Position numbers and translations under genes: made by a program
NCBI RefSeq assembly: GCF_009914755.1
Contig: NC_060948.1
Reading direction: 5' to 3' (one strand)
Length of the DNA: 64,000 nt
Source: the human T2T-CHM13v2.0 reference genome, Homo sapiens
The notes under the pieces: generated by a model
The model's input: the letters and a program-made list of their open reading frames with translations, nothing else
Told to the model about the DNA's origin: nothing
The model's database searches: none
In this document: piece after piece, positions 19,161-64,000 of the stretch
Numbering within the stretch: the first letter of the stretch is position 1
Layout of the letters: each line of letters opens with the position of its first letter

Positions 19161-22100
19161 GATCAGAACGGACTGGAGAGGAATGTACACAAATGGAATG
19201 GAAACGAATGGAATGGAATGCAATGGAATTGAAAGGAACGGAATCAAATGGAATGGAATGGAATGGAATGGATTGGAATAGAATGGATTCAAATAAAATA
19301 GAATCGATTGGAATGGTATTGAATGGAAGGGACTTGAATGGAATGGAAAGCAATGGAAGATATTGGAATCGAATGGCATCGAATGAAATGGAATGGAACG
19401 GAATGGAACGGACCCGAATGGAATGGAATGGACTCAAATGGAATGGACTCGAATGGAATCGACTGAAATATAATAGACTCGAATGGAATGGCCTCGAGCG
19501 GAATTTATTTGAATAGAATGGAATCAAATGGAAAACAATAGTATGGAATGGAATGGAATCGAATGGAATGTAATCAAATGGAATGGAACGGAATTCAATA
19601 TAATGGAGTAGAATGGAATGCATTGGAAAGGAGCAGAGTGGAATCGAGTGGATTGGAATCGAGTGGAATGGAATCAAAGGGAACGAAATCGAATTGAATG
19701 GACTTGAATGGAATTGAGTGGAAAGGAATTGACTCGAAAGGAATGGACTGGAACAAAAAGGAATCAAATGGACAGGAATGGAATGGAATGGACTCGAATG
19801 GAGTGGAGTCAAATACAAACGCATCGAATGGAATGGATTCAAATGGAATGCAATTCAATGGAATAGAAAGGAAGAGAATGGAATTGAGAGTAATGGAAAG
19901 ATATCGATTGGAATGAAATGGAATGGAAAGGAATTGCATGGAAAGGAATGGACTCGAAAGAAATAGATTGGAATGGAATGGTCTCCAATGGAATGGACTG
20001 GAGTGGAATGGAATCGAATGGAATGAAAAGAATGGAACGGAATGGAACGGAAAGGAATAGAATGTTATGGAATCCGATTGGACAGAATGGAATGGAATGG
20101 AGTTTCATGAAATGGAGTCGAATACAGTGGCATCAAAAGAAATGGAATGGAATGGAGTGGACTCAAAAGGAATGGACTCGAAAGGAATGGAGTCGAACAG
20201 AATGGAATGGAATGGAATGAACTCGACTGGAGTAGAGAGGAATGTAAAGGAATAGAATGGAATGTAATCAAATGGATTGCAAGTGAATGGAATCAAAAAT
20301 AATAGAAAGGAATGGAGTGTAAAGGGATGATATTGAATAAAATGGAATGGAATGGAATTTAATGGAATGGAGTCTCAGGAATGGACAGGAATGTAATGGA
20401 CTCCAATGGAATGGAATGGATCAAGATGGATTTGAACAGATTGGAATCGAACGGAATGGAATGCAATGGAATGGAATGGACTCGAATGGAGAAGAGACAA
20501 ATGGAATGGAAACGAATTCAATGGAATTGAAAAGAATAGAATGGAATGGCCTGTAATGGTAAGATACTAAATGGAATGGAATTGAATGGAATGTAGTGGA
20601 ATGGACGCAAATGTAATGCACTCGAATGGAATATACTCAAATAGAATGGAATCGAAAGGAAAGGTCTCAAATGGAATTTATTCAATACAATGGAATCGAA
20701 TGGAATGCAATAGAATGGAAAGGAATCGAATGTAATGGAATCAAATAGAATGGACCAGAATGGAATGGACTGCCATAGAACGGACTGCAGTGTAAAGGAT
20801 TGAATTCAAATTCATTCAAATGGAATGGAATTGAATGGAATGGAATCCAATGGAATGGATAGGATTGTACTGGAATGGAATAGCATGGAATGCAACGGAG
20901 TGGAATGGAGTTGAATGAAGTAGAATGGAATCGATTGGAATGGAATCAAATGGAATGGACGGGAATGGAATGGACTGGAAGAGAACAGACTCGAATATAA
21001 TGGATTGTAATGTAATTGATTCAGATGGAATGGAATCGAATGGAATGTAATAAAATTGAAGGGATTGGAGTCCAATGCAATGAAATAGAATGGAATGCAA
21101 AGGAAAGGAAAGGCACGGAGTGAAATCGAGTGTAATGGAATCGAATGGAATGAAATCGAATGGAATGGACTCAAAAGAAATGGACGAGGGACAAAACGGA
21201 ATCGAACTGATTGGAATCGAATGGAACGGAATGGAATGGAATGGTCTCCATTGGATGGGAGTAGAACGGATTGGAATGAAATGGAATGGAAAGGAATAGA
21301 ATGGAATGGAAAGGAATGGAAGATAATGGAAAGATATCGAACGGATTGGAAAGGAATGGAATGGACGCTAATGGAATGGAGTGGAATTCAACAGAAACGA
21401 ATGGAATGGACTGGAGTGAAATGGAGTCGAATGTAATTGACTGGAGAGGAATGGGCTCGAAAGGAATGGACTCGAATAGAATGGACTGGAATGGATTGTA
21501 CTCTAATGGAGTGGAAAGGAATAAAATGGATTCCACCAGATTGGAATGGAACAGAATGTAATGGAATGGAATGGAATGGAATGGAATGGCACGAATGGAA
21601 TGGAGTCGAATGCAATGGAAGAGAAAGGAAAGGAATTGGATGGAATTGAAAGTAATAGAATTAAATAGAGCGCAAAGGAAAGATATCGAATGGAATGGAT
21701 CGAAAAGAAATAGAATGGAATGGACAGGAATGGAATGGAATAGAATGGAATAGACTGGCGTGAAATGAAAACGAATGGAATGGAAACGAATGGAATGGAA
21801 TGGAAAGGAATGGAGTAGAATAAATACTATGGAATGGAATGGAATGGAATGGAGGCGAAAGGAAAAGAATGGATTGGAATGTCACCGTATGGAAAGATAT
21901 GGACTGGAAAGGAATGGATACGAATGGAATGGAATAGAAAGGAACGGAAAGGTAAAGAATGGAATGGAATCGGATAGAATGGAATGCAATGTAATGGAGT
22001 CGAATGGAAAATAATCGAGTAGAATGATATCGAATGGAATGGAATGGAATGGAATGGACTCGAATGGAATGTACTCAGATGGATTAGAATAGAATGGAAT

Positions 22101-24668
22101 GGAACTAAACGTAATGAACTCGAATGGAATGGACACAAATAGAATGGAAGAGAAAGGAATGGTATTGAATGGAATTTATTCGAATAGAATGGAATTCAAT
22201 GGAATGCAACAGTGTGGCATGGAATCAAATGGAATGGAATCGAATGGAAAGGACCCGAGTGGAATGGACTCACATAGAACAGCCTCGAATGTAATGGATG
22301 ACAATGTATTAGATTCGAAAGGACTGAAATCGAATGGAATGTAATCAAATAGAACGGAATTGAATGCATGGAATGGCATAGAAAGTAATGCAATGGAATG
22401 GAATAGACGGCAATGGAATGGAATCGGATGGAGTGTAATGAAATGTAATGGAAGGAATGCCATGGAATGGAATGGAATGGAATGCAATGGGACGGTGTAT
22501 AATGGAGTGCCATGGATTTCAGTGGAATGCAGTCAAAAGGAATGAAATAGAATGGAATTCAATATAATGGAATGGCATCCAATGGCAAGGAATGGAGCAG
22601 ACTCCAGTGGAAACGACAAGAAAGGAATATAATATAATGGAATGGCATTGAACGAAATGGAATGCAATGGAGTTAAAAGGTAAAATATCGAAAGGAAAAG
22701 AATTGAATGGACTCGAATGGAATATAATGGAATGGAATGGATTCGAATGGAATGTACTAGAGTTGTATGGAATCGAATGGAATGGAAAACAATGGAAAGG
22801 AAAGGAAGGGAATTGAAAGGAAAGGAATAGAATAGAATGGAATCGGATGGAACAGAATTAAATGGAATGGAAATTAAAGGAATAGAATAGAAAGGAATGG
22901 CATTGAATGGAATGGAAATGAATGGAATCAGATGGAACAGAAAGGAATGGAATAGAATCGAATGGAATGGCAACGAATGGATTGGAATGGAATGTAATGG
23001 AATGGAATGGAAAGGAATGGAATGGACTCAAATGGAATGTACTCAAATGGAATAGAATAGAATGGAATGGAAGTAAATATAATGGACTCGAGTGGAATGG
23101 ATTGGAATAAATTGGAATTGAATGTATTGGATTCGAATGGAAAGGAATGGAATGGAATGGAATGGAATGGAATGGATTCGAGTGGAATGGAACGAATTGG
23201 AATGTAATTGAATGGAGTCGAAAACAGTAGAAAGAAATAAAGTATAATCGAATGATATCGAATGGAATTGAATGGAATGTACGCAAATGGAATTGACTGG
23301 AATGGAATGGAATGACATGTAATGGAATCGAAAGGAATGGAATCGAATGAAATGGAATTGAATGGAATAGAAAGGAATAGAATGGAATGGAGTTTAATGG
23401 AAAGATATTAAAAGTAATGGAATGGAATTGAGTGGACACAAATGGAATGGACTGGAATGGAAAGGACTCGAATGAAATGGAGCGCATTAGAATGGACTCG
23501 AATGGAACGGATTGGTGTGGAATTGTCTCGAATGGATTGGAAACGAATGGAATGGAAAAGAATAGAATGGAATGTAATCAAATGGAACGAAATGGAATGG
23601 AATGGATTCGACTGAAACAGAATTAACTGGAGTGGAATTGAATGGAATGGAATGCAATCGAATGGAATGGACACGAATGGAATAGAATGAAATGAAATGG
23701 CATAGAATGGAATGGAATGGAATGGAATGGAATGGAATGGAATGGAATGGAATGGAATGGAATGCATTGGAATGGAATGGAATGGCATGGCATGGAATGG
23801 AATGGCATGGAATGAAATGGATTGGAATGGAATGGGTCCAAAAGTAATGGACTCAAATAAAAGGGACTGAAATAGAATGAATTGTAAAGAAACGGTCTCG
23901 AATGTAATTTATTCGAATAGAATGATATTGAATGGAATGCGATAGTGTAGAATGGTATCGAATAGAATGGAATGGAATGGAACGGAATGGAGTGCATTTG
24001 AACGGACTCAAATGCAATAAATTGCAATATAATTGATTCAAATGGAATGAAATCGAATAGAATGTAAACAAATGGAATGGAAGGCAATGCAATGGAAAGG
24101 AATCGAATGAAATGGAATAAATGGGATGGAATCGAATGGAAAGGACGCGAATATAATGGACTGTTAAGGAAAGGTCTCGAATCGAATTTATTCCAATAGA
24201 ATGGAATCGAATGGAATGCAATACTATTGAATCGAATCGAATGGAATGGAATTGAATGGAATGGACAGGAATGGAATGAACTGGAAGTGAATGGACAAGA
24301 ACGTAATATATTGCAATGTAATTTATTCAAATGGAATGGAAAGCAATCGAATGGAATGGACGCGATTGCAATGGACTGGAGTGGAATGGACTGAAATGGA
24401 ATGGAAACGAATGCAATGGAATGGAAAGGAAAGCAAAGGAATCTACCCGAATGGAATCGAACGGAACAGAAAGGAATGGAATAGAATGGAGTGGAATGGA
24501 CTCGAATGGAATGTATTTGAATGTAATGGACCTGAAAGGAATGTAATCCAATGGAATGGAATTGAATGGAATCAAAAGGAATAGAAAGGAATAGAGTGTA
24601 ATTGAATGATATCGAATGGAAGGGAATGGAATGAAGTCGAATGGAATGCACTGGAATGGAATGGACTC
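19161..24668 (+). repeat. 5.5-kb HOR unit U2 (5508 bp)
   Basis: Landmark spacing. Shares private variants with U3 (GAAATAAAGTATAATCG, GGAGCGCATTAG, GGGTCCAAAAG). Confidence 0.9.
23705..23764 (+). repeat. Perfect (GAATG)12 microsatellite tract
   Basis: 60 bp of uninterrupted pentamer after GAAATGGCATA. Homologous tracts in other units differ in length. Confidence 0.9.
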
Positions 24669-27600
24669 GATCAGAACGGACTGGAGAGGAATGTACACAA
24701 ATGGAATGGAAACGAATGGAATGGAATGAAATGGAATTGAAAGGAACGGAATCAAATGGAATGGAATGGAATGGAATGGATTGGAATAGAATGGATTCAA
24801 ATAAAATAGAATCGATTGGAATGGTATTGAAAGGAAGGGACTTGAATGGAATGGAAAGCAATGGAAGATATTGGAATCTAATGGCATCGAATGAAATGGA
24901 ATGGAACGGAATGGAACGAACCCGAATGGAATAGAATGGACTCAAATGTAATGGACTCGAATGGAATCGACTGAAATATAATAGACTCGAAAGGAATGGC
25001 CTCGAGCGGAATTTATTTGAATAGAATGGAATCAAATGGAAAACAATAGTCTGGAATGGAATGGAATCGAATGGAATGTAATCAAATGGAATGGAACGGA
25101 ATTCAATATAATGGAGTAGAATGGAATGCATTGGAAAGGAGCAGAGTGGAATCGAGTGGATTGGAATCGAGTGGAATGGAATCAAAGGGAACGAAATGGA
25201 ATTGAATGGACTTGAATGGAATTGAGTGGAAAGGAATTGACTCGAAAGGAATGGACTGGAACAAAAAGGAATCAAATGGACAGGAATGGAATGGAATGGA
25301 CTCGAATGGAGTGGAGTCAAATGCAAACGCATCGAATGGAATGGATTCAAATGGAATGCAATTCAATGGAATAGAAAGGAAGAGAATGGAATTGAGAGTA
25401 ATGGAAAGATATCGATTGGAATGAAATGGAATGGAAAGGGATTGCATGGAAAGGAATGGACTCGAAAGAAATGGATTGGAATGGAATGGTCTCCAATGGA
25501 ATGGACTGGAGTGGAATGGAATCGAATGGAATGAAAAGAATGGAACGGAATGGAACGGAAAGGAATAGAATGTTATGGAATCCGATTGGACAGAATGGAA
25601 TGGAATGGAGTTTCATGAAATGGAGTCGAATAAAGTGGCATCAAAAGAAATGGAATGGAATGGAGTGGACTCAAAAGGAATGGACTCGAAAGGAATGGAG
25701 TCGAACAGAATGGAATGGAATGGAATGAACTCGACTGGAGTAGAGAGGAATGTAAAGGAATAGAACGGAATGTAATCAAATGGACTGCAAGTGAATGGAA
25801 TCAAAAATAATAGAAAGGAATAGAGTGTAAAGGGATGATATGGAATAAAATGGAATGGAATGGAATTTAATGGAATGGAGTCTCAGGAATGGACAGGAAT
25901 GTAATGGACTCCAATGGAATGGAATGGATCAAAATGGATTTGAACAGATTGGAATCGAACGCAATGGAATGCAATGGAATGGAATGGACTCGAATGGAGA
26001 AGAGACAAATGGAATGGAAACGAATTCAATGGAATTGAAAAGAATAGAATGGAATGGCGAGTAATGGTAAGATACTAAATGGAATGGAATTGAATGGAAT
26101 GTAGTGAAATGGACGCAAATGTAATGCACTCGAAAGGAATATACTCAAATAGAATGGAATCGAAAGGAAAGGTCTCAAATGGAATTTATTCAATACAATG
26201 GAATCGAATGGAATGCAATAGAATGGAAAGGAATCGAATGTAATGGAATCAAATAGAATGGACCAGAATGGAATGGACTGCCATAGAACGGACTGCAGTG
26301 TAAAGGATTGAATTCTAATTCATTCAAATGGAATGGAATTGAATGGAATGGAATCCAATGGAATGGATAGGATTGTACTGGAATGGAATAGCGTGGAATG
26401 CAACGGAGTGGAAAGGAGTTGAATGAAGTGGAATGGAATCGATTGGAATGGAATCAAATGGAATGGACGGGAATGGAATGGACTGGAAGAGAACAGACTC
26501 GAATATAATGGATTGCAATGTAATTGATTCAAATGGAATGGAATCGATTGGAATGTAATAAAATTGAAGGGATTGGAGTTCAATGCAATGAAATAGAATG
26601 GAATGCAAAGGAAACGAAAGGCACGGAGTGAAATCGAGTGTAATGGAATCGAATGGAATGAAATCGAATGGAATGGACTCAAAAGAAATGGACGAGGGAC
26701 AAAACGGAATCAAACTGATTGGAATCGAATGGAACGGAATGGAATGTAATGGTCTCCATTGGATGGGAGTAGAACGGATTGGAATGAAATGGAATGGAAA
26801 GGAATAGAATGGAATGGAAAGGAATGGAAGGTAATGGAAAGATATTGAACGGATTGGAAAGGAATGGAATGGACGCTAATGGAATGGAGTGGAATTCAAC
26901 AGAAACGAATGGAATGGACTGGAGTGAAATGGAGTCGAATGTAATTGACTGGAGAGGAAGGGGCTCGAAAGGAATGGACTCGAATAGAATGGACTGCAAT
27001 GGATTGTACTCGAATGGAGTGGAAAGGAATAAAATGGATTCCACGAGATTTGAATGGAACAGACTGAAATGGAATGGAATGGAATGCAATGGAATGGCTC
27101 GAATGGAATGGAGTCGAATGCAATGGAAGAGAAAGGAAAGGAATTGGACAGAATTGAAAGTAATAGAATTAAATGGAGTGCAAAGGAAAGATATCGAATG
27201 GAATGGATCGAAAAGAAGGAGAATGGAATGCACAGGAATGGAATGTAATAGAATGGAATAGACTGGCGTGCAATGAAAACGAATGGAAGGGAAACGAATG
27301 GAATGGAATGGAAAGGAATGGAGTAGAATAAATACTATGGAATGGAATGGAATGGAATGGAATGGAATGGAGGCAAAAGGAAAAGAATGGATTAGAATGT
27401 CACCGAATGGAAAGATATGGAATGGAAAGGAATGGATACGAATGGAATGGAATAGAAAGGAACGGAAAGGTAAAGAATGGAATGGAATAGGATAGAATGG
27501 AATGCTATGTAATGGAGTCGAATGGAAAATAATCGAGTAGAATGATATCGAATGGAATGGAATGGAATGGAATGGACTCGAATGGAATGTACTCAAATGG

Positions 27601-30165
27601 ATTAGAATAGAATGGAATGGAACTAAACGTAATTAACTCGAATGGAATGGGCACAAATAGAATGGAAGAGAAAGGAATGGTATTGAATGGAATTTATCCG
27701 AATAGAATGGAATTCAATGGAATGCAACAGTGTGGCATGGAATCAAATGGAATGGAATCGAATGGAATGGACCCGAGTGGAATGGACTCACATAGAACAG
27801 CCTCGAATGTAATGGATTACAATATATTAGATTCGAAAGGACTGAAATCGAATGGAATGTAAAAAAATAGAACGGAATTGAATGCATGGAATGGCATAGA
27901 AAGTAATGCAATGGAATGGAATAGACTGGAATGGAATGGAATCGGATGGAATGTAATGAAATGTAATGGAAGGAATGCCATGGAATAGAATGGAATGGAA
28001 TGCAATGGGACGGTGTATAATGGAGTGCCATGGATTTCAGAGGAATGCAGTCAAAAGGAATGAAATAGAATGGAATTCAATAAAATGGAATGGCATCCAA
28101 TGGCAAGGAATGGAGCGGACTCCAGTGGAAACGACATGAAAGGAATATAATATAATGGAATGGCATTGAACGAAATGGAAAGCAATGGAGTTAAAAGGTA
28201 AAATATCGAATGGAATAGAATTGAATGGACTCGAATGGAATATAATGGAATGGAATGGATTCGAATGGAATGTACTAGAGTTGTATGGATTCGAATGGAA
28301 TGGAAAACAATGGAAAGAAAGGAAGGGAATTGAAAGGAAAGGAATAGAATGGAATGGAATCGGATGGAACAGAATTGAATGGAATGGAAATTAAAGGAAT
28401 AGAATAGAAAGGAATGGCATTGAATGGAATGGAAATGAATGGAATCAGATGGAACAGAAAGGAATGGAATAGAATCGAATGGAATGGCAACGAACGGATT
28501 GGAATGGAATGTAATGGAATGGAATGGAAAGGAATGGAATGGACTCAAATGGAATGTACTCAAATGGAATAGAATAGAATGGAATGGAAGTAAATATAAT
28601 GGACTCGAGTGGAATGGATTGGAATAAATTGGAATTGAATGTATTGGATTCGAATGGAAAGGAATGGAATGGAATGGAATGGAATGGAATGGATTCGAAT
28701 GGAATGGAACGAATTGGAATGTAATTGAATGGAGTCGAAAACAGTAGAAAGAAATAAAGTATAATCGAATGATATCGAATGGAATTGAATGGAATGTACG
28801 CGAATGGAATGGACTGGAATGGAATGGAATGACATGTAATGGAATCGAAAGGAATGGAATCGAATGAAATGGAATTGAATGGAATAGAAAGGAATAGAAT
28901 GGAATGGAGTTTAATGGAAAGATATTAAAAGTAATGGACTGGAATTGAGTGGACACAAATGGAATGGACTGGAATGGAAAGGACTCGAATGAAATGGAGC
29001 GCATTAGAATGGACTCGAATGGAACGGATTGGTGTGGAATTGTCTCGAATGGATTGGAAACGAATGGAATGGAAAAGAATAGAATGGAATGTAATCAAAT
29101 GGAACGAAATGGAATGGAATGGATTCGACTGAAACAGAATTAACTGGAGTGGAATTGAATGGAATGGAATGCAATCGAATGGAATGGACACGAATGGAAT
29201 AGAATGAAATGAAATGGCATAGAATGGAATGGAATGGAATGGAATGGAATGGAATGGAATGGATTGGAATGGAATGGAATGGCATGGCATGGAATGGAAT
29301 GGCATGCAATGAAATGGATTGGAATGGAATGGGTCCAAAAGTAATGGACTCAAATAAAAGGGACTGAAATAGAATGAATTGTAAAGAAACGGTCTCGAAT
29401 GTAATTTATTCGAATAGAATGATATTGAATGGAATGCGATAGTATAGAATGGTATCGAATAGAATGGAATGGAATGGAACGGAATGGAGTGCATTTGAAC
29501 GGACTCAAATGCAATAAATTGCAATATAATTGATTCAAATGGAATGAAATCGAATAGAATGTAAACAAATGGAATGGAAGGCAATGCAATGGAAAGGAAT
29601 CGAATGAAATGGAATAAATGGGATGGAATCGAATGGAAAGGACGCGAATATAATGGACTGTTAAGGAAAGGTCTCGAATCGAATTTATTCCAATAGAATG
29701 GAATCGAATGGAATGCAATACTATTGAATCGAATCGAATGGAATGGAATTGAATGGAATGGACAGGAATGGAATGAACTGGAAGTGAATGGAGAAGAACG
29801 TAATATATTGCAATGTAATTTATTCAAATGGAATGGAAAGCAATCGAATGGAATGGACGCGATTGCAATGGATTGGAGTGGAATGGACTGAAATGGAATG
29901 GAAACGAATGTAATGGAATGGAAAGGAAAGCAAAGGAATCTACCGGAATGGAATCGAACGGAAGAGAAAGGAATGGAATAGAATGGAGTGGAATGGACTC
30001 GAATGGAATGTATTCGAATGTAATGGACCTGAAAGGAATGTAATAAAATGGAATGGAATTGAATGGAATCAAAAGGAATAGAAAGGAATAGAGTGTAATT
30101 GAATGATATCGAATGGAAGGGAATGGAATGAAGTCGAATGGAATGCACTGGAATGGAATGGACTC
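24669..30165 (+). repeat. 5.5-kb HOR unit U3 (5497 bp)
   Basis: Landmark spacing. Sister of U2. Confidence 0.9.
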
Positions 30166-30703
30166 GATCAGAACGGACTGGAGAGGAATGTACAGAAATG
30201 GAATGGAAACGAATGGAATGAAAAGAATGGAACGGAATGGAATGGAAAGGAATAGAATGTTATGGAATCCGATTGAACAGAATGGAATGGAATGCAGTTT
30301 CATGAAATGGAGTCGAATATAGTGGCATCAAAAGGAATGGAATGGAGTGGACTCAAAAGGAATGGACTCGAAAGGAATGGAGTCGAACCAAATTGAATCA
30401 AATGGATTGGAGTCGAACAGAATGGAATGGAATGGAATGAACTCGACTGGAGTAGAGAGGAATGTAAAGGAATAGAATGGAATGTAATCAAATGGATTGC
30501 AAGTGAATGGAATCAAAAATAATAGAAAGGAATGGAGTGTAAAGGGATGATATTGAATTAAATGGAATGGAATGGAATTTAATGGAATGGAGTCGAAGGA
30601 ATGGACAGGAATGTAATGGACTCCAATGGAATGGAATGGATCAAAATGGATTTGAACAGATTGGAATCGAACGGAATGGAATGCAATGAAATGGAATGGA
30701 CTC
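30166..30703 (+). repeat. 538-bp internally deleted 1.37-kb-type monomer embedded in the 5.5-kb array
   Basis: Two GATCAGAACGG landmarks only 538 bp apart. The sequence jumps at ~30,210-30,220 from ...GGAAACGAATGGAATG to AAAAGAATGGAACGG and ends in the 1.37-kb-type junction GCAATGAAATGGAATGGACTCGATCAG. Confidence 0.88.
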
Positions 30704-33700
30704 GATCAGAACGGACTGGAGAGGAATGTACACAAATGGAATGGAAACGAAAGGAATGGAATGAAATGGAATGGAATGCAATGGAATTGAAAGGAACGGA
30801 ATCAAATGGAATGGAATGGAATGGAATGGATTGGAATAGAATGGATTCAAATAAAATAGAATCGATTGGAATGGTATTGAATGGAAGGGACTTGAATGGA
30901 ATGGAAAGCAATGGAAGATATTGGAATCGAATGGCACCGAATGAAATGGAATGGAACGGAATGGAACGGACCCGAATGGAATGGAATGGACTCAAATGTA
31001 ATGGACTCGAATGGAATCGACTGAAATATAATAGACTCGAAAGGAATGGCCTCGAGCGGAATTTATTTGAATAGAATGGAATCAAATGGAATACAATAGT
31101 ATTGAATGGAATGGAATGGAATGGAATCGAATGGAATGTAATCAAATGGAATGGAACGGAATTCAATATAATGGAGTAGAATGGAATGCATTGGAAAGGA
31201 GCAGAGTGGAATCGAGTGGATTGGAATCGAGTGGAATGGAATCAAAGGGAACGAAATCGAATTGAATGGACTTGAATGGAATTGAGTCGAAAGGAATTGA
31301 CTCGAAAGGAATGGACTGGAACAAAAAGGAATCAAATGGACAGGAATGGAATGGAATGGACTCGAATGGAGTGGAGTCAAATGCAAACGCATCGAATGGA
31401 ATGGATTCAAGTGGAATGCAATTGAATGGAATAGAAAGGAAGAGAATGGAATTGAGAGTAATGGAAAGATATCGATTGGAATGAAATGGAATGGAAAGGA
31501 ATTGCATGGAAAGGAATGGACTCGAAAGAAATGGATTGGAATGGAATGGTCTACATTGGAATGGACTGGAGTGGAATGGAATCGAATGGAATGAAAAGAA
31601 TGGAACCGAATGGGACGGAAAAGAATAGAATGTTATGGAATCCGATTGGACAGAATGGAATGGAATGGAGTTTCATGAAATGGAGTCGAATAGAGTGGCA
31701 TCAAAAGGAATGGAATCGAATGGAGTGGACTCAAAAGGAATGGACTCGAAAGGAATGGAGTCGAACAGAATGGAATGGAATGGAATGAACTCGACTGGAG
31801 TAGAGAGGAATGTAAAGGATTAGAATGGAATGTAATCAAATGGATTGCAAGTGAATGGAATCAAAAATAATAGAAAGGAATGGAGTGTAAAGGGATGATA
31901 TTGAATAAATTGGAATGGAATGGAATTTAATGGAATGGAGTCTCAGGAATGGACAGGAATGTAATGGACTCCAATGGAATGGAATGGATCAAAATGGATT
32001 TGAACAGATTGGAATCGAACGCAATGGAATGCAATGGAATGGAATGGACTCGAATGGAGAAGAGACAAATGGAATGGAAACGAATGCAATGGAATTGAAA
32101 AGAATAGAATGGAATGGCGTGTAATGGTAAGATACTAAATGGAATGGAATTGAATGGAATGTAGTGGAATGGACCCAAATGTAATGCACTCGAATGGAAT
32201 ATACTCAAATAGAATGGAATCGAAAGGAAAGGTCTCAAATGGAATTTATTCAATACAATGGAATCGAATGGAATGCAATAGAATGGAAAGGAATCGAATG
32301 TAATGGAATCAAATAGAATGGACCAGAATGGAATAGACTGCCATAGAACGGACTGCAGTGTAAAGGATTGAATTCAAATTCATTCAAAAGGAATGGAATT
32401 GAATGGAATGGAATCCAATGGAATGGATAGGATTGTACTGGAATGGAATAGCATGGAATGCAACGGAGTGGAATGGAGTTGAATGAAGTGGAATGGAATC
32501 GATTGGAATGGAATCAAATGGAATGGACGGGAATGGAATGGACTGGAAGAGAACAGACTCGAATATAATGGATTGCAATGTAATTGATTCAAATGGAATG
32601 GAATCGAATGGAATGTAATAAAATTGAAGGGATTGGAGTTCAATGCAATGAAATAGAATGGAATGCAAAGGAAAGGAAAGGCACGGAGTGAAATCGAGTG
32701 TAATGGAATCGAATGGAATGAAATCGAATGGAATGGACTCAAAAGAAATGGGCGAGGGACAAAACGGAATCGAACTGATTGGAATCGAATGGAACGGAAT
32801 GGAATGTAATGGTCTCCATTGGATGGGAGTAGAACGGATTGGAATGAAATGGAATGGAAAGGAATAGAATGGAATGGAAAGGAATGGAAGGTAATGGAAA
32901 GATATCGAACGGATTGGAAAGGAATGGAATGGACGCTAATGGAATGGAATGGAATTCAACAGAAACGAATGGAATGGACTGGAGTGAAATGGAGTCGAAT
33001 GTAATTGACTGGAGAGGAATGGACTCGAAAGGAATGGACTCGAATAGAATGGACTGGAAAGGATTGTACTCGAATGGAGTGGAAAGGAATAAAATGGATT
33101 CCACCAGATTGGAATGGAACAGAATGTTATGGAATGGAATGGAATGCAATGGAATGTCTCGAATGGAATGGAGTCGAATGCAATGGAAGAGAAAGGAAAG
33201 GAATTGGATGGAATTGAAAGTAATAGAATTAAATGGAGTGCAAAGGAAAGATATCGAATGGAATGGATCGAAAAGAAATAGAATGGAATGGACAGGAATG
33301 GAATGGAATAGAATGGAATAGACTGGCGTGCAATGAAAACGAATGGAATGGAAACGAATGGAATGGAATGGAAAGGAATGGAGTAGAATAAATACTATGG
33401 AATGGAATGGAATGGAATGGAATGGAGGCGAAAGGAAAAGAATGGATTGGAATGTCACCGAATAGAAAGGTATGGAATGGAAAGGAATGGATACGAATGG
33501 AATGGAATAGAAAGGAACGGAAAGGTAACAATGGAATGGAATCGGATAGAATGGAATGCAATGTAATGGAGTCGAATTGAAAATAATCGAGTAGAATGAT
33601 ATCGAATGGAATGGAATGGAATGGAATGGACTCGAATGGAATATACTCAAATGGATTAGAATAGAATGGAATGGAACTAAACGTAATGAACTCGAATGGA

Positions 33701-36194
33701 ATGGACACAAATAGAATGGAAGAGAAAGGAATGGTATTGAATGGAATTTATTCGAATAGAAAGGAATTCAATGGAATGCAACAGTGTGGCATGGAATCAA
33801 ATGGAATGGAATCGAATGGAATGGACCCGAGTGGAATGGACTCACATAGAACAGCCTCGAATGTAATGGATGACAATGTATTAGATTCGAAAGGACTGAA
33901 ATCGAATGGAATGTAATCAAATAGAACGGAATTGAATGCATGGAATGGCATAGAAAGTAATGCAATGGAATGGAATAGAATGGAATGGAATGGAATCGGA
34001 TGGAATGTAATGAAATGTAATGGAAGGAATGCCATGGAATGGAATGGAATGGAATGCAATGGGACGGTGTATAATGGAGTGCCATGGATTTCAGTGGAAT
34101 GTAGTCAAAAGGAATGAAATAGAATGGAATTCAATATAATGGAATGGCATCCAATGGCAAGGAATGGAGCGGACTCCAATGGAAACGACATGAAAGGAAT
34201 ATAATATAATGGAATGGCAATGAACGAAATGGAATGCAATGGGGTTAAAAGGTAAAATATCGAATGGAAAAGAATTGAATGGACTCGAATGGAATATAAT
34301 GGAATGGAATGGACTCGAATGGAATGTACTAGAGTTGAATGGAATCGAATGGAATGGAAAACAATGGAAAGGAAAGGAAGGGAATTGAAAGGAAAGGAAT
34401 AGAATGGAATGGAATCGGATGGAACAGAATTGAATGGAATGGAAACTAAAGGAATAGAATAGAAAGGAATGGCATTGAATGGAATGGAAATGAATGGAAT
34501 CAGATGGAACAGAAAGGAATGGAATGGCATGGAATGGATTGGAATGGAATGTAATGGAATGGAATGGAAAGGAATGGAATGGACTCAAATGGAATGTACT
34601 CAAATGGAATAGAATAGAATGGAATGGAAATAAATATAATGGACTCGAGTGGAATGGATTGGAATAAATTGGAATTGAATGTCTTGGATTCGAATGGAAA
34701 GGAATGGAATGGAATGGAATGGAATGGAATGGAATGGATTCGAATGGAATGGAACGAATTGGAATGTAATTGAATGGAGTCGAAAACAGTAGCAAGAAAA
34801 GAAGTTTAATCGAATGATATCGAATGGAATTGAATGGAATGTACGCGAATGGAATGGACTGGAATGGAATAGAATGACATGTAATGGAATCGAAAGGAAT
34901 GGAATCGAATGAAATGGAACTGAATGGAATAGAAAGGAATAGAATGGAATGGAGTTTAATGAAAGATATTAAAGGTAATGGAATGGAATTGAGTGGACAC
35001 AAATGGAATGGACTGGAATGGAAAGGACTCGAATGAAATGGACCGCATTAGAATGGACTCGAATGGAACGGATTGGTGTGGAATGATCTCGAATGGATTG
35101 GAAACGAATGGAATGGAAAAGAATAGAATGGAATGTAATCAAATGGAACGAAATGGAATGGAATGGATTCGACTGGAACAGAATTGAATGGAGTGGAGTT
35201 GAATGGAATGGAATGCAATCGAATGGAATGGACACGAATGGAATAGAATGAAATGAAATGGCATAGAATGGAATGGAATGGAATGGAATGGAATGGAATG
35301 GAATGGAATGGCATGGAATGGAATGGAATGGCATGGAATGAAATGGATTGGAATGGGATGGGCCCAAAAGTAATGGACTCAAATAAAAGGGACTCAAATA
35401 GAATGAATTGTAAAGAAACGGTCTCGAATGTAATTTATTCGAATAGAATGATATTGAATGGAATGCAATAGTATGGAATGGTATCGAATAGAATGGAATG
35501 GAATGGAACGGAATGGAGTGCATTTGAACGGACTCAAATGCAATAAATTGCAATATAATTGATTCAAATGGAATGAAATCGAATAGAATGTAAACAAATG
35601 GAATGGAAGGCAATGCAATGGAAAGGAATCCAATGAAATGGAATAAATGGGGTGGAATCGAATGGAAAGGACGCGAATATAATGGACTGTTAAGGAAAGG
35701 TCTCGAATCGAATTTATTCCAATAGAATGGAATCGAATGGAATGCAACACTATTGAATCGAATCGAATGGAATGGAATTGAATGGAATGGACAGGAATGG
35801 AATGAACTGGAAGTGAATGGACAAGAACGTAATATATTGCAATGTAATTTATTCAAATGGAATGGAAAGCAATCGAATGGAATGGACGCGATTGCAATGG
35901 ACTGGAGTGGAATGGACTGAAATGGAATGGAAACGAATGTAATGGAATGGAACGGAAAGCAAAGGAATCTACCGGAATGGAATCGAACGGAACAGAAAGG
36001 AATGGAATAGAATGGAGTGGAATGGACTCGAATGGAATGTATTCGAATGTAATGGACCTGAAAGGAATGTAATCCAATGGAATGGAATTGAATGGAATCA
36101 AAAGGAATAGAAAGGAATAGAGTGTAATTGAATGATATCGAATGGAAGGGAATGGAATGAAGTCGAATGGAATGCACTGGAATGGAATGGACTC
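30704..36194 (+). repeat. 5.5-kb HOR unit U4 (5491 bp)
   Basis: Landmark spacing. Shares AGTAGCAAGAAAAG with U5 and GATATTAAAGGTAATGG with U1 and U5. Confidence 0.9.
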
Positions 36195-39100
36195 GATCAG
36201 AACGGACTGGAGAGGAATGTACACAAATGGAATGGAAACGAATGGAATGGAATGAAATGGAATGGAATGCAACGGAATTGAAAGGAACGGAATCAAATGG
36301 AATGGAATGGAATGGAATGGATTGGAATAGAATGGATTCAAATAAAATAGAATCGATTGGAATGGTATTGAATGGAAGGGACTTGAATGGAATGGAAAGC
36401 AATGGAAGATATTGGAATCGAATGGCATCGAATGAAATGGAATGGAACGGAATGGAACGGACCCGAATGGAATGGAATGGACTCAAATGTAATGGACTCG
36501 AATGGAATCGACTGAAATATAATAGACTCGAAAGGAATGGCCTCGAGCGGAATTTATTTGAATAGAATGGAATCAAATGGAATACAATAGTATTGAATGG
36601 AATCGAATGGAATGGAATCGAATGGAATGTAATCAAATGGAATGGAACGGAATTCAATATAATGGAGTAGAATGGAATGCATTGGAAAGGAGCAGAGTGG
36701 AATCGAGTGGATTGGAATCGAGTGGAATGGAATCAAAGGGAACGAAATCGAATTGAATAGACTTGAATGGAATTGAGTAGAAAGGAATTGACTCGAAAGG
36801 AATGGACTGGAACAAAAAGGAATCAAATGGACAGGAATGGAATGGAATGGACTCGAATGGAGTGGAGTCAAATGCAAACGCATCGAATGGAATGGATTCA
36901 AATGGAATGCAATTGAATGGAATAGAAAGGAAGAGAATGGAACTGAGAGTAACGGAAAGATATCGATTGGAATGAAATGGAATGGAAAGGAATTGCATGG
37001 AAAGGAATGGACTCGAAAGAAATGGATTGGAATGGAATGGTCTCCAATGGAATGGACTGGAGTGGAATGGAATCGAATGGAATGAAAAGAATGGAACGGA
37101 ATGGAACGGAAAAGAATAGAATGCTATGGAATCCGATTGGACAGAATGGAATGGAATGGAGTTTCATGAAATGGAGTCGAATAGAGTGGCATCAAAAGGA
37201 ATGGAATCGAATGGAGTGGAGTCAAAAGGAATGGACTCGAAAGGAATGGAGTCGAACAGAATGGAATGCAATGGAATGAACTCGACTGGAGTAGAGAGGA
37301 ATGTAAAGGAATAGAATGGAATGTAATCAAATGGATTGCAAGTGAATGGAATCAAAAATAATAGAAAGCAATGGAGTGTAAAGGGATGATATTGAATAAA
37401 ATGGAATGGAATGGAATTTAATGGAATGGAGTCTCAGGAATGGACAGGAATGTAATGGACTCCAATGGAATGGAATGGATCAAAACGGATTTGAACAGAT
37501 TGGAATCGAACGCAAAGGAATGAAATGGAATGGAATGGACTCGAATGGAGAAGAGACAAATGGAATGGAAACGAATTCAATGGAATTGAAAGGAATAGAA
37601 TGGAATGACCTGTAATGTTAAGATAGTAAATGGAATGGAATTGAATGGAATGTAGTGGAATGGACCCAAATGTAATGCACTCGAATGGAATATACTCAAA
37701 TAGAATGGAATCGAAAGGAAAGGTCTCAAATGGAATTTATTCAATACAATGGAATCGAATGGAATGCAATAGAATGGAAAGGAATCGAATGTAATGGAAT
37801 CAAATAGAATGGACCAGAATGGAATGGACTGCCATAGAACGGACTGCAGTGTAAAGGATTGAATTCTAATTCATTCAAATGGAATGGAATTGAATGGAAT
37901 GGAATCCAATGGAATGGATAGGATTGTACTGGAATGGAATAGCATGGAATGCAACGGAGTGGAATGGAGTTGAATGAAGTGGAATGGAATCGATTGGAAT
38001 GGAATCAAATGGAATGGACGGGAATGGAATGGACTGGAAGAGAACAGACTCGAATATAATGGATTGCAATGTAATTGATTCAAATGGAATGGAATCGAAT
38101 GGAATGTAATAAAATTGAAGGGATTGGAGTTCAATGCAATGAAATAGAAGGGAATGCAAAGGAAAGGAAAGGCACGGAGTGAAATCGAGTGTAATGGAAT
38201 CGAATGGAATGAAATCGAATGGAATGGACTCAAGAAATGGACGAGGGACAAAACGGAATCGAACTGATTGGAATCGAATGGAACGGAATGTAATGGAATG
38301 GTCTCCATTGGATGGGAGTAGAACGGATTGGAATGAAATGGAATGGAAAGGAATAGAATGGAATGGAAAGGAATGGAAGGTAAAGGAAAGATATCGAACG
38401 GATTGGAAAGGAATGGAATGGACGCTAATGGAATAGAGTGGAATTCAACAGAAACGAATGGAATGGACTGGAGTGAAATGGAGTCGAATGTAATTGACTG
38501 GAGAGGAATGGACTCGAAAGGAATGGACTCGAATAGAATGGAGTGGAATGGATTGTACTCGAATGGAGTGGAAAGGAATAAAATGGATTCCACCAGATTG
38601 GAATGGAACAGAATGTAATGCAATGGAATGGAATGCAATGGAATGGCTCGAATGGAATGGAGTCGAATGCAATGGAAGAGAAAGGAAAGGAATTGGATGG
38701 AATTGAAAGTAATAGAATTAAATGGAGTGCAAAGGAAAGATATCGAATGGAATGGATCGAAAAGAAATTGAATGGAATGGACAGGAATGGAATGGAATAG
38801 AATGGAATAGACTGGCGTGCAATGAAAACGAATGGAATGGAAACGAATGGAATGGAATGGAAAGGAATGGAGTAGAATAAATACTATGGAATGGAATGGA
38901 ATGGAATGGAATGGAATGGAATGGAATGGAGGCGAAAGGAAACGAATGGATTGGAATGTCACCGAATGGAAAGGTATGGAATGGAAAGGAATGGATACGA
39001 ATGGAATGGAATAGAAAGGAACGGAAAGGTAAAGAATGGAATGGAATCGGATAGAATGGAATGCAATGTAATGGAGTCGAATGGAAAATAATCGAGTAGA

Positions 39101-41689
39101 ATGATATCGAATGGAATGGAATGGAATGGAATGGACTCGAATGGAATGTACTCAAATGTATTAGAATAGAATGGAATGGAACTAAACGTAATGAACTCGA
39201 ATGGAATGGACACAAATAGAATGGAAGAGAAAGGAATGGTATTGAATGGAATTTATTCGAATAGAATGGAATTCAATGGAATGCAACAGTGTGGCATGGA
39301 ATCCAATGGAATGGAATCGAATGGAATGGACCCGAGTGGAATGGACTCACATAGAACAGCCTCGAATGTAATGGATGACAATGTATTAGATTCGAAAGGA
39401 CTGAAATCGAATGGAATGTAATCAAATAGAACGGAATTGAATGCATGGAATGGCATAGAAAGTAATGCAATGGAATGGAATAGACTGGAATGGAATGGAA
39501 TCGGATGGAATGTAATGAAATGTAATGGAAGGAATGCCATGGAATGGAATGGAATGGAATGCAATGGGACGGTGTATAATGGAGTGCAATGGATTTTAGT
39601 GGAATGTAGTCCAAAGGAATGAAATAGAATGGAATTCAATATAATGGAATGGCATCCAATGGCAAGGAATGGAGCGGACTCCAATGGAAACGACATGAAA
39701 GGAATATAATATAATGGAATGGCATTGAACGAAATGGAATGCAATGGGATTAAAAGGTAAAATATCGAATGGAAAAGAATTGAATGGACTCGAATGGAAT
39801 ATAATGGAATGGAATGGACTCGAATGGAATGTACTAGAGTTGAATGGAATCGAATGGAATGGAAAACAATGGAAAGGAAAGGAAGGGAATTGAAAGGAAA
39901 GGAATAGAATGGAATGGAATCGGATGGAACAGAATTGAATGGAATGGAAACTAAAGGAATAGAATAGAAAGAAATGGCATTGAATGGAATGGAAATGAAT
40001 GGAATCAGATGGAACAGAAAGGAATGGAATGGCATCGAATGGATTGGAATGGAATGTAATGGAATGGAATGGAAAGGAATGGAATGGACTCAAATGGAAT
40101 GTACTCAAATGGAATAGAATAGAATGGAATTGAAGTAAATATAATGGACTCGAGTGGAATGGAATGGAATAAATTGGAATTGAATGTATTGGATTCGAAA
40201 GGAAAGGAATGGAATGGAATGGAATGGAATGGAATAGAATGGAATGGATTCGAATGGAATGGAACGAATTGGAATGTAATTGAATGGAGTCGAAAACAGT
40301 AGCAAGAAAAGAAGTTTAATCGAACGATATCGAATGGAATTGAATGGAATGTACGCGAACGGAATGGACTGGAATGGAATGGAATGACATGTAATGGAAT
40401 CGAAAGGAATGGAATCGAATGAAATGGAATTGAATGGAATAGAAAGGAATAGAATGGAATGGAGTTTAATGGAAAGATATTAAAGGTAATGGAATGGAAT
40501 TGAGTGGACACAAATGGAATGGAATGGAATGGAAAGGACTCGAATGAAATGGACCACATTAGAATGGAGTCGAATGGAACGGATTGGTGTGGAATGATCT
40601 CGAATGGATTGGAAACGAATGGAATGGAAAAGAATAGAATGGAATGTAATCAAATGGAACGAAATGGAATGGAATGGATTCGACTGGAACAGAATTGAAT
40701 GGAGTGGAGTTGAATGGAATGGAATGCAATCGAATGGAATGGACACGAATGGAATAGAATGAAATGAAATGGCATAGAATGGAATGGAATCAATGGAATG
40801 GAATGGAATGGAATGGAATGGCATGGAATGAAATGGATTGGAATGGGATGGGCCCAAAACTAATGGACTCAAATAAAAGGGACTCAAGCAGAATGAATTG
40901 TAAAGAAACGGTCTCGAATGTAATTTATTCGAATAGAATGATATTGAATGGAATGCAATAGTATGGAATGGTATCGAATAGAATGGAATGGAATGCACCG
41001 GAATGGAATGCATTTGAACGGACTCAAATGCAATAAATTGCAATATACTTGATTCAAATGGAATGAAATCGAATAGAATGTAAACAAATGGAATGGAAGG
41101 CAATGCAATGGAAAGGAATCGAATGAAATGGAATAAATGGGATGGAATCGAATGGAAAGGACGCGAATATAATGGACTGTTAAGGAAAGGTCTCGAATCG
41201 AATTTATTCCAATAGAATGGAATCGAATGGAATGCAATACTATTGAATCGAATCGAATGGAATGGAATTGAATGGAATGGACAGGAATGGAATGAACTGG
41301 AAGTGAATGGACAAGAACGTAATATATTGCAATGTAATTTATTCAAATGGAATGGAAAGCAATCGAATGGAATGGACGCGATTGCAATGGACTGGAGTGG
41401 AATGGACTGAAATGGAATGGAAACGAATGTAATGGAATGGAACGGAAAGCAAAGGAATCTACCGGAATGGAATCGAACGGAACAGAAAGGAATGGAATGG
41501 AATGGAGTGGAATGGACTCGAATGGAATGTATTCGAATGCAATGTAATGGACCTGAAAGGAATGTAATCCAATGGAATGGAATTGAATGGAATCAAAAGG
41601 AATAGAAAGGAATAGAGTGTAATTGAATGATATCGAATGGAAGGGAATGGAATGAAGTCGAATGGAATGCACTGGAATGGAATGGACTC
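36195..41689 (+). repeat. 5.5-kb HOR unit U5 (5495 bp)
   Basis: Landmark spacing. Sister of U4. Confidence 0.9.
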
Positions 41690-44600
41690 GATCAGAACGG
41701 ACTGGAGAGGAATGTACACAAATGGAATGGAAACGAATGGAATGGAATGAAATGGAATGGAATGCAACGGAATTGAAAGGAACGGAATCAAATGGAATGG
41801 AATGGAATGGAATGGATTGGAATAGAATGGATTCAAATAAAATAGAATCGATTGGAATGGTATTGAATGGAAGGGACTTGAATGGAATGGAAAGCAATGG
41901 AAGATATTGGAATCGAATGGCATCGAATGAAATGGAATGGAATGGAGTGGAACGGACCCGAGTGGAATGGAATGGACTCAAATGTAATGGACTCGAATGG
42001 AATCGACTGAAATATAATAGACTCGAAAGGAATGGCCTCCAGCGGAATTTATTTGAATAGAATGGAATCAAATGGAATATAATAGTATTGAATGGAATCG
42101 AATGGAATGTAATCGAATGGAATGTAATCAAATGGAATGGAACGGAATTCAATATAATGGAGTAGAATGGAATGCATTGGAAAGGAGCAGAGTGGAATCG
42201 AGTGGATTGGAATCGAGTGGAATGGAATCAAAGGGAACGAAATCGAATTGAATGGACTCGAAAGGAATTGACTAGAAAGGAATGGACTGCAACAAAAAGG
42301 AATCAAAAGGACAGGAATGGAATGGAATGAACTCGAAAGGAATGGAGTCAAATGCAAACGCATCGAATGGAATAGATTCAAATGGAATGCAATTGAATGC
42401 AATAGAAAGGAAGAGAATGGAATTGAGAGTATTGGAAAGATATCGTTTGGAATGAAATGGAATGGAAAGGAATTGAATGGAAAGGAATGGACTCGAAAGA
42501 AATGGATTGGAATGGAATGGTCTCCAATGGAATGGACTGGAGTGGAATGGAATCGAATGGAATGAAAAGAATGGAACGGAATGGAACGGAAAGGAATAGA
42601 ATGTTATGGAATCCGATTGGACAGAATGGAAGGGAATGCAGTTTCATGAAATGGAGTCCAAGAGAGTGGCATCAAAAGGAATGGAATGGAGTGGAGTGGA
42701 CTCAAAAGGAATGGACTCGAAAGGAATGGAGTCGAACCAAATTGAATCAAATGGATTGGAGTCGAACAGAATGGAATGGAATGGAATGAACTCGACTGGA
42801 GTAGAGAGGAACGTAAAGGAATAGAATGGAATGTAATCAAATGGATTGCAAGTGAATGTAATCAAAAATAATAGAAAGGAATGGAGTGTAAAGGGATGAT
42901 ATTGAATAAAATGGAATGGAATGGAACTTAATGGAATGGAGTCGAAGGAATGGACAGGAATGTAATGGACTCCAATGGAATGGAATGGATCAAAATGGAT
43001 TTGAACAGATTGGAATCGAACGGAATGGAATGCAATGGAATGGAATGGACTCGAACGGAGAAGAGACAAATGGAATGGAAACGAATTCAATGGAATTGAA
43101 AAGAATAGAATGGAATGGCCTGTAATGGTAAGATGCTAAATGGAATGGAATTGAATGGAATGTAGTGGAATGGACCCAAATGTAATGCACTCGAATGGAA
43201 TATACTCAAATAGAATGGAATCGAAAGGAAAGGTCTCAAATGGAATTTATTCAATACAATGGAATCGAATGGAATGCAATAGAATGGAAAGGAATCGAAT
43301 GTAATGGAATCAAATAGAATGGACCAGAATGGAATGGACTGCCATAGAACGGACTGCAGTGTAATGGATTTAAATCTAATTCATTCAAATGGAATGGAAT
43401 TGAATGGAATGGAATCCAATGGAATGGATAGGATTGTACTGGAATGGAATAGCATGGAATGCAACGGAGTGGAATGGAGTTGAATGAAGTGGAATGGAAT
43501 CGATTGGAATGGAATCAAATGGAATGGACGTGAATGGAATGGACTGGAAGAGAACAGACTCGAATATAATGGATTGCAATGTAATTGATTCAAATGGAAT
43601 GGAATCGAATGGAATGTAATAAAATTGAAGGGATTGGAGTTCAATGCAATGAAATAGAATGGAATGCAAAGGAAAGGAAAGGCACGGAGTGAAATCGAGT
43701 GTAATGGAATCGAATGGAATGAAATCGAATGGAATGGACTCAAAAGAAATGGACGAGGGACAAAACGGAATCGAACTGATTGGAATCGAATGGAACGGAA
43801 TGTAATGGAATGGTCTCCATTGTATGGGAGTAGAACGGATAGGAATGAAATGGAATGGAAAGGAATAGAATGGAATGGAAAGGAATGGAAGGTAATGGAA
43901 AGATATCGAACGGATTGGAAAGGAATGGAATGGACGCTAATGGAATGGAATGGAATTCAACAGAAACGAATGGAATGGACTGGAGTGAAATGGAGTCGAA
44001 TGTAATTGACTGGAGAGGAATGGACTCGAAAGGAATGGACTCGAATAGAATGGACTGGAATGGATTGTACTCGAATGGAGTGGAAAGGAATAAAATGGAT
44101 TCCACCAGATTTGAATGGAACAGAATGTAATGCAATGGAATGGAATGCAATGGAATGGCTCGAATGGAATGGAGTCGAATGCAATGGAAGAGAAAGGAAA
44201 GGAATTGAATGGAATTGAAAGTAATAGAATTAAATGGAGTGCAAAGGAAAGATATCGAATGGAATGGATTGAAAAGAAATAGAATGGAATGGACAGGAAT
44301 GGAATGGAATAGACTGGCGTGCAATGAAAACGAATGGAATGGAAACGAATGGAATGGAATGGAAAGGAATGGAGTAGAATAAATACTATGGAATGGAATG
44401 GAATGGAATGGAATGGAAAGGAATGGAGGCGAAAGGAAAAGAATGGATTGGAATGTCACCGAATGGAAAGATATGGAATGGAAAGGAATGGATACGAATG
44501 TAATGGAATAGAAAGGAAGGGAAAGGTAAAGAATGGAATGGAATCGGATAGAATGGAATGCAATATAATGGAGTCGAATGGAAAATAATCGAGTAGAATG

Positions 44601-63927: not shown

Positions 63928-64000
63928 GATCAGAACGGACTGGAGAGGAATGTACACAAATGGAATGGAAACGAATGGAATGGAATGAAATGGAATGGAA

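What the first reader, a model, noticed from the sequence alone, without database searches (positions are those of the whole stretch)
30166..30870. Stranded 538-bp relic carrying the 1.37-kb junction, 16 kb inside the 5.5-kb array
Seen: the U3-U4 interval is 538 bp too long (GCCTCGAGCGG spacing 6050). The extra piece has 1.37-kb-type markers (GCAGTTTCATG, the 30-bp AACCAAATTG segment, GATATTGAATTAAA, AGTCGAAGG, the GCAATGAAATGG...GATCAG junction, AACGAAAGG at ~30,752). It also keeps 5.5-kb-type states (AATGTAAAGG at ~30,461, ATCGATTGGAA at ~30,865) and shares GAATATAGTGGC (~30,315) with the last short monomer (~13,261). Inference: either an early intermediate of the junction that predates the array's own mutations, or a long-range conversion or insertion from the 1.37-kb array.
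Basis: partly seen in the sequence, partly recalled or inferred. Interest (0 to 1): 0.7.

Follow-up and report, generated by a model that had tools for sequence, protein, structure and literature searches.

The report
Stray satellite copy on human Y
In a block of repeated DNA near the human Y centromere, one 5.5-kb repeat unit carries an extra 538 bases that almost exactly match the middle of a neighbouring array over 100 kb away, so it is likely an ordinary DNA-repair copy rather than a fossil of that array's origin.

Summary
The extra 538 bp is real, and it is the only copy of the 1.37-kb junction downstream of the short array. It is a truncated monomer: positions 1-55 of a 5.5-kb unit joined, at a 9-bp microhomology, to monomer position 890; monomer-type sequence then runs through the junction to somewhere in 30,752-30,868.

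With 155 monomers in hand, the tract is 2 of 649 bases from a monomer 124 kb upstream and 14 of 659 from the last monomer. It carries the array-internal haplotype 946A+990T+49A (14 of 146 monomers) and has no private mutations. That favours copying from the array's core over a fossil.

Against this: one base (30,465) has the long-unit state found in 0 of 155 monomers, and AU tests do not reject a basal position (p 0.24 and 0.12).

Best model: homology-primed repair synthesis from a distant monomer, closed by microhomology joining. Ordinary satellite turnover; no gene. Reads were not checked.

The parts
30166..30220 (+). Host 5.5-kb unit start (monomer-equivalent positions 1-55), with one private substitution at position 30; ends in the microhomology junction
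   Evidence: Preceded by the normal long-unit end, not the monomer junction; breakpoint scan; T at 30,219 fits host position 54, since 14 of 14 monomers with 946A+990T have A at position 889
30210..30218 (+). 9-bp microhomology (CGAATGGAA) shared by host positions 45-53 and monomer positions 880-888; out-of-register join that skips 835 bp of monomer
   Evidence: run of 9 reached by 4.1% of 3,499 random in-phase position pairs; 24 of 30 identity reached by 3.0%
30220..30703 (+). 3' 484 bp of a 1.37-kb monomer (positions 890-1373) with array-wide alleles 965C, 1058C, 1229T, 1359A and array-internal alleles 913T, 946A, 990T
30465..30465 (+). Single long-unit-type base (position 1135 T) inside the tract; likely a later small conversion from a long unit or a back mutation
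   Evidence: T in 11 of 11 long units and 0 of 155 monomers; U2, U7 and U8 match the tract exactly for 57-76 bp left and 93 bp right of it
30678..30712 (+). 1.37-kb head-to-tail junction; only copy downstream of the main array
   Evidence: 144 genome-wide matches at up to 1 mismatch = 136 in the 264 kb held + 8 in an upstream block
30704..30868 (+). Start of the next monomer grading in register into U4; switch lies between 49A (30,752) and 166G (30,869)
1..13649 (+). Distal end of the 1.37-kb array (chrY about 11,959,745-12,165,650; 146 monomers, one embedded long unit); the likely donors lie upstream of the window at chrY 11.96-11.99 and 12.04-12.08 Mb
13650..64000 (+). 5.5-kb GGAAT-based units U1-U9; U1-U5 and U6-U9 form two groups

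Best explanation
The extra 538 bases are a partial 1.37-kb satellite monomer that was likely copied in one repair event from the interior of the neighbouring short array into the start of a 5.5-kb unit. Shown: the 1.37-kb monomer is homologous to the first 1.35 kb of the long unit; the tract runs from monomer position 890 through the junction to positions 49-165; its right end is in register within long homology; its left end is out of register at a 9-bp microhomology; no host sequence is missing beyond small indels. Inferred: a break near positions 55-165 of the host unit; the right end invaded a monomer in register (sister chromatid or same chromatid, as this part of Y has no pairing partner); synthesis ran about 540-650 nt backwards across the junction; the new strand came off and was joined to the left end by microhomology (SDSA followed by end joining, or an equivalent double template switch at a fork). 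The one long-type base at 30,465 is inferred to be a later small conversion from a long unit, or a back mutation.
For: Nearest monomer (chrY 12,057,428) differs at 2 of 649 sites; mean over 155 monomers 10.5; last monomer 14 of 659. Lowest mean distance, 5.3, is in the 12.04-12.06 Mb bin, against 11.1-13.5 in the bins from 12.08 Mb to the boundary. Four of the tract's eight derived alleles are polymorphic within the array (913T 14/146, 946A 36/146, 990T 16/146, 49A 91/146); 14 of 14 monomers with 946A+990T are followed by 49A, as the tract is; these alleles flank position 1135 on both sides. Only 4 of 115 long-unit alleles coincide with such array alleles, so three or four independent coincidences have rough probability 8e-5 to 3e-6. 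The tract has 0 private substitutions where U2-U5 rates predict 3.4-5.8 (P 0.003-0.033). The more diverged upstream block already has 1135A in 9 of 9 and 946G in 9 of 9, so 1135A likely predates 946A. Free tree nests it in the 946A group (SH-aLRT 84 and 83); nested placement beats basal by 16 lnL. SDSA+EJ products are described in Drosophila (PMC2895639, passages).
Against: Position 1135 is ancestral in the tract and derived in 155 of 155 monomers, which needs one extra event. AU tests do not reject a basal position (p 0.244; 0.121) and no strongly supported branch holds the tract. The coincidence estimate assumes independence; 913 is a CpG site and 990 varies in U2, U3 and unlinked monomers, so both may recur. 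No monomer carries the tract's exact haplotype. The 9-bp microhomology is only modestly unusual in GGAAT DNA (4%). A two-step history gives the same sequence. One assembly only; no reads seen.
Confidence: 0.55

Rival explanations
1. Two steps with the same donor: one or more whole monomers entered the site in register by unequal sister exchange or long-tract conversion, and a later microhomology-mediated deletion removed positions 56-889 and any extra monomers. A large duplication followed by an in-register collapse is a variant.
For: Blocks of whole monomers between long units exist here: 9 monomers at chrY 11,914-11,926 kb, and a long unit splits the main array at 11,991 kb. A 190-bp out-of-register deletion is seen in 2 monomers. 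All evidence for an interior donor fits equally.
Against: Needs two independent events; large internal deletions are rare among monomers (one deletion, in 2 of 155).
Confidence: 0.27
2. Fossil intermediate: the piece branched off after the junction, 1229T and 1359A arose but before 1135A was fixed, and its other array-like alleles came by parallel mutation or later conversion.
For: 1135T in the tract against A in 155 of 155 monomers. U6 carries 965C and 1058C with 1135T, 1229A and 1359G, which allows an ordered series U6-like, tract, array. Basal placement not rejected.
Against: Needs three or four coincidences with array polymorphisms on both sides of 1135, in a linked combination already present in the array; no private substitutions despite isolation; 16-22 lnL worse.
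Confidence: 0.1
3. Assembly or polishing artefact: reads from monomers were merged into the long-unit path.
For: Highly repetitive region; no reads could be examined here.
Against: The left junction is unique and has microhomology; the tract differs from every one of 155 monomers at 2 or more sites; flanking long units are 1-3.6% apart, so long reads should place it (inference).
Confidence: 0.04
4. Tandem duplication of the 17,054-bp boundary block (last monomer end + U1-U3), which would make the piece a copy of the last monomer.
For: 17,054-bp offsets of shared 24-mers and of GAATATAGTGGC.
Against: 14 differences from the last monomer; U4/U1 1.83%, U5/U2 2.24%, U6/U3 3.64% apart and U6 belongs to the other group; placement fails the AU test (p-SH 0.087).
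Confidence: 0.02

Closest known systems
HSat3 nested tandem repeats (NTRs); pericentromeric HSat3/DYZ17 block of Yq
   Same: [quoted passage not shown] 10.1101/2022.12.01.518658 (passages) places an HSat3 array and then DYZ17 (0.86-1.74 Mb) next to DYZ3.
   Different: The passages seen give no internal structure for DYZ17 (no 5.5-kb or 1.37-kb unit, no such insertion). That this window lies in DYZ17 rests on recalled coordinates, not on a call.
Interlocus gene conversion in Yq12 DYZ1/DYZ2 satellites
   Same: Non-allelic, same-chromosome copying between satellite units: 13 of 45 de novo Yq12 SNVs matched other sites (PMC12240836, passages); 6 of 35 events in PMC13252187 (passages).
   Different: Those are single-base changes, and the de novo SVs there are whole units. 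Here a non-integer 538-bp gain crosses between arrays of different period.
SDSA followed by end joining (aborted gap repair)
   Same: One end made by homologous copying, the other joined at microhomology (PMC2895639, passages).
   Different: Shown in Drosophila at induced breaks; here inferred from one sequence, with an ectopic template.
Rsp-like insertion into 1.688 satellite clusters in Drosophila simulans and mauritiana
   Same: Truncated satellite monomers placed in another satellite at microhomology junctions, proposed to be by MMEJ, SDSA or template switching (10.1101/846238, passages).
   Different: Unrelated satellites that then expanded; here donor and host are parent and daughter repeats and the piece has not expanded.

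Membership tests
HSat3 nested tandem repeat | Diverged (GGAAT/CATTC)n pentamer base | tested here: met
   TRF: whole window, period 10 AATGGAATGG, 63% matches
HSat3 nested tandem repeat | Kilobase-scale periodicity with high unit identity | tested here: met
   1,373/1,378-bp units 0.4-2% from consensus; 5.5-kb units 1-3.6% apart
HSat3 nested tandem repeat | Subfamily assignment (e.g. HSat3A3) and DYZ17 boundaries | not testable with these tools
   No consensus library; review and Nature supplement not held, preprint supplement unreadable
Ectopic templated insertion / long-tract conversion | Insert matches a distant donor better than local sequence | tested here: met
   2 of 649 differences to a monomer 124 kb away; 9-20 substitutions to the 11 long units over positions 880-1373, plus a 30-bp gap against U1-U5
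Ectopic templated insertion / long-tract conversion | Donor array left intact; host flanks continuous | tested here: met
   Regular monomer spacing in the core; U3 5,497 bp and U4 5,491 bp. Loss of whole units could not be seen.
Ectopic templated insertion / long-tract conversion | Nested position among donors with statistical support | tested here: inconclusive
   Nested in the best tree, but basal not rejected: p-AU 0.244 and 0.121
SDSA + end joining | One end in long homology, other end at microhomology | tested here: met
   Right end within a 117-bp in-register interval; left end 9-bp run, top 4% of in-phase pairs
SDSA + end joining | Single event, without a whole-monomer intermediate | not testable with these tools
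   Needs other Y assemblies
Fossil intermediate of array birth | Lacks alleles that arose inside the expanded array | tested here: not met
   Carries 913T, 946A, 990T, 49A
Fossil intermediate of array birth | Keeps an ancestral state at a site fixed in the array | tested here: met
   1135T against 155 of 155 A; 1 of the 5 near-fixed diagnostic sites in the tract
Fossil intermediate of array birth | Private mutation load like neighbouring long units | tested here: not met
   0 private against 3.4-5.8 expected

The most novel reading that the evidence does not exclude
The piece is a surviving early form of the 1.37-kb repeat. With U6 (965C, 1058C) it would record the order of steps by which a 205-kb array was born from one 5.5-kb unit: 965C/1058C, then junction, 1229T and 1359A, then 1135A. 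Its shared alleles would then come from later exchange over more than 100 kb, making it a dated, sequence-level record of a satellite's birth.
Probability: 0.1. Interest if true: 0.45.

Novelty: new member of a known kind. Interest (0 to 1): 0.22.

Why it matters
It is a clean, base-resolved example of sequence moving more than 100 kb between two satellite arrays of different period on a chromosome part with no pairing partner, with an asymmetric pair of junctions that points to repair synthesis. It shows how a junction could seed a new array elsewhere. Its unique left junction could serve as a lineage marker in Y assemblies. No gene or annotated element is involved, and exchange between Y satellite units is already documented, so a specialist would find it neat rather than surprising.

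Tried and rejected
1) Copy of the last monomer or a 17,054-bp boundary duplication: rejected. 2) Local duplication of U4's or a neighbour's own segment: U1-U5 lack the 30-bp segment and differ at 9-17 sites; U2 and U6 placements rejected. 3) A hidden source of 1135T monomers: the exact 31-bp 1135T motif has 57 genome matches, which apart from the tract follow long-unit spacings, and 9 of 9 upstream-block monomers have A. 4) Other stranded junctions: none at up to 1 mismatch; more diverged ones would be missed. 5) Two upstream over-long units examined as possible similar events are local 654-659-bp tandem duplications. 6) Tree tests of basal versus nested were inconclusive; two chimeric long rows (chrY 11,991,344 and U1) were dropped from both, and duplicate rows. 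7) Literature: seven searches found no description of this insertion or of a 5.5/1.37-kb structure; most subscription papers, the 2022 HSat review and the supplements of the Y-assembly papers were not visible and may describe it. Long units beyond 12.216 Mb and most of those before 11.952 Mb were not read. No ORF, RNA-family or protein search was run, as the stretch is satellite with no annotated gene.

Full report
Setting. The window is entirely GGAAT-type satellite. It has a 1,373/1,378-bp period up to about 13,650 and a 5.5-kb period after it. The hub annotation gives chrY:12,152,001-12,216,000 with no gene. The literature places an HSat3 array and then DYZ17 distal to the Y centromere (10.1101/2022.12.01.518658, passages). 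That the window is in DYZ17 is my recall of coordinates, not a call result.

Observation. I number positions from the GATCAG that starts each unit. The 1.37-kb monomer is homologous to the first 1.35 kb of the long unit. The long unit's end and the end of that segment match at 31 of 32 bases, which likely explains how the monomer arose by unequal exchange. The 538-bp interval 30,166-30,703 aligns as positions 1-44 joined to 880-1373, with 835 bp absent. Because 14 of 14 monomers with the tract's 946A+990T have A at 889, while the tract has T, the T fits host position 54 and the switch is best put at host 55 / monomer 890. After the junction at 30,704 the sequence is monomer-type at position 49 (30,752) and long-type at 166 (30,869).

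Wider data. I read 200 kb upstream and 20 kb further up. The main short array has 146 monomers from chrY 11,959,745 to 12,165,650 with one embedded long unit. A separate block of 9 monomers lies at 11,914-11,926 kb. The junction 35-mer has 144 matches genome-wide at up to one mismatch, all on the forward strand: 136 in the 264 kb held and 8 in the upstream block. The tract is therefore the only copy downstream of the array at that stringency.

Donor. Over 649 sites the tract differs from the monomer at 12,057,428 at 2 sites, and from six more monomers at 3; the mean over 155 is 10.5. The last monomer differs at 14 of 659. Distances are lowest in the 12.04-12.06 Mb bin, where monomers are also closest to the consensus. 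The tract differs from the long-unit majority at eight sites. Four are near-fixed in the array (965, 1058, 1229, 1359). Four are polymorphic: 913T (14 of 146), 946A (36), 990T (16), 49A (91). 946A and 990T are linked (Fisher p 5.5e-8), and all 14 main-array monomers with both are followed by 49A. The closest copy of that haplotype is about 103 kb upstream today; later expansion may have changed the distance.

The contrary site. At 1135 (30,465) the tract has T, as do 11 of 11 long units, whereas 146 of 146 main and 9 of 9 upstream-block monomers have A. This is the only real evidence for a fossil. Array-internal alleles flank it on both sides, and the diverged upstream block has 1135A with ancestral 946G in 9 of 9, so 1135A looks older than 946A. 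U2, U7 and U8 match the tract exactly for about 150-170 bp around the site, so a short conversion from a long unit is possible; a back mutation cannot be told from it.

How strong. A fossil needs three or four chance coincidences with array alleles; the empirical rate is 4 of 115, giving about 8e-5 to 3e-6 if independent. That overstates the case, since 913 is a CpG site and 990 varies elsewhere. A fossil should also carry 3.4-5.8 private changes at its neighbours' rates, and it has none (P 0.003-0.033); 66 of 146 main monomers also have none. The tree of 167 rows nests the tract in the 946A group with SH-aLRT 84 and 83 and no strong support. Forcing all 155 monomers together without it costs 21.7 lnL but is not rejected (p-AU 0.244; two chimeric long rows dropped). 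On a fixed backbone, basal placement costs 16.1 lnL (p-AU 0.121); placements beside the last monomer, U2 and U6 are rejected by AU. I put about 0.82 on an interior donor and 0.10 on a fossil.

Mechanism. The ends are asymmetric. The right end is in register within long shared sequence. The left end is out of register at a 9-bp run that 4.1% of in-phase position pairs reach. The simplest single event is inferred to be invasion of a monomer by the right end of a break, about 540-650 nt of synthesis across the junction, and microhomology joining to the left end. SDSA followed by end joining is described in Drosophila (PMC2895639, passages), and similar proposals exist for Rsp-like insertions (10.1101/846238, passages). 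In-register entry of whole monomers followed by an 835-bp deletion gives the same sequence and cannot be excluded. A 17,054-bp boundary duplication is ruled out by unit distances.

Age. One difference per lineage in 649 sites is about 5,000 generations at roughly 3e-7 per base per generation (my estimate from two DYZ17 SNVs in six transmissions, PMC13252187 passages, and the 1.085-Mb mean size). At 1.17e-8 (PMC12240836 passages) it is about 130,000 generations. The range is too wide to say whether living men differ at this site.

How ordinary. The region has other non-integer changes: 654-659-bp local duplications in two upstream long units and a 190-bp deletion in two monomers, and 3,361-bp spacings near 11.76 Mb. 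Interlocus conversion in Y satellites is documented (PMC12240836; PMC13252187). Seven searches found no description of this insertion or of the 5.5/1.37-kb structure. I saw passages only of eight papers (searches cover nine look-ups, of which searches gave nothing relevant); the 2022 HSat review and the Y-paper supplements were not visible and may bear on novelty.

Verdict. Observation confirmed; conversion or insertion from the array interior is the likely reading; fossil unlikely but open; reads unchecked. New member of a known kind, interest 0.22.

Noticed in passing
window 42,640-42,750 (U6, monomer-equivalent positions 965-1058): U6 is the only non-boundary long unit with the monomer alleles 965C and 1058C, and has a different 5-bp insertion; either an older conversion patch from the short array or the long unit closest to the array's founder.
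   Followed up: partly
L021:1159 to L022:3516 (chrY 11,914,159-11,926,516): A separate block of 9 more diverged 1.37-kb monomers among long units; the following long unit switches from monomer to long type between positions 1135 and 1224.
   Followed up: yes
L004:9344 to L005:4930 (chrY 11,991,344-11,996,931): One 5,587-bp long unit embedded in the main short array, monomer-type up to position 1058 and long-type from 1135.
   Followed up: partly
L023 (chrY about 11,838,400-11,839,700) and L024 (about 11,878,700-11,880,000): Long units of about 6.2 kb that carry local tandem duplications of 659 and 654 bp.
   Followed up: partly
L017 (chrY 12,113,863 and 12,119,175): Two 1,183-bp monomers share a 190-bp deletion (positions 226-415), 5,312 bp apart, suggesting a four-monomer duplication.
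   Followed up: partly
window 13,650-14,250 (U1 start): U1 is monomer-type through about position 585 and long-type by 668, so the array's own boundary crossover differs from the tract's.
   Followed up: partly
chrY 11.756-12.507 Mb (motif spacings): The 5.5-kb period runs from about 11.755 to 12.31 Mb, with 3,361-bp spacings near 11.76 Mb and about 7.6-kb spacings at 12.31-12.32 and 12.47-12.49 Mb.
   Followed up: no
window 13,650-63,930: U1-U5 share a 30-bp deletion and 7 substitutions; U6-U9 share 35; U2 and U3 share 21.
   Followed up: yes
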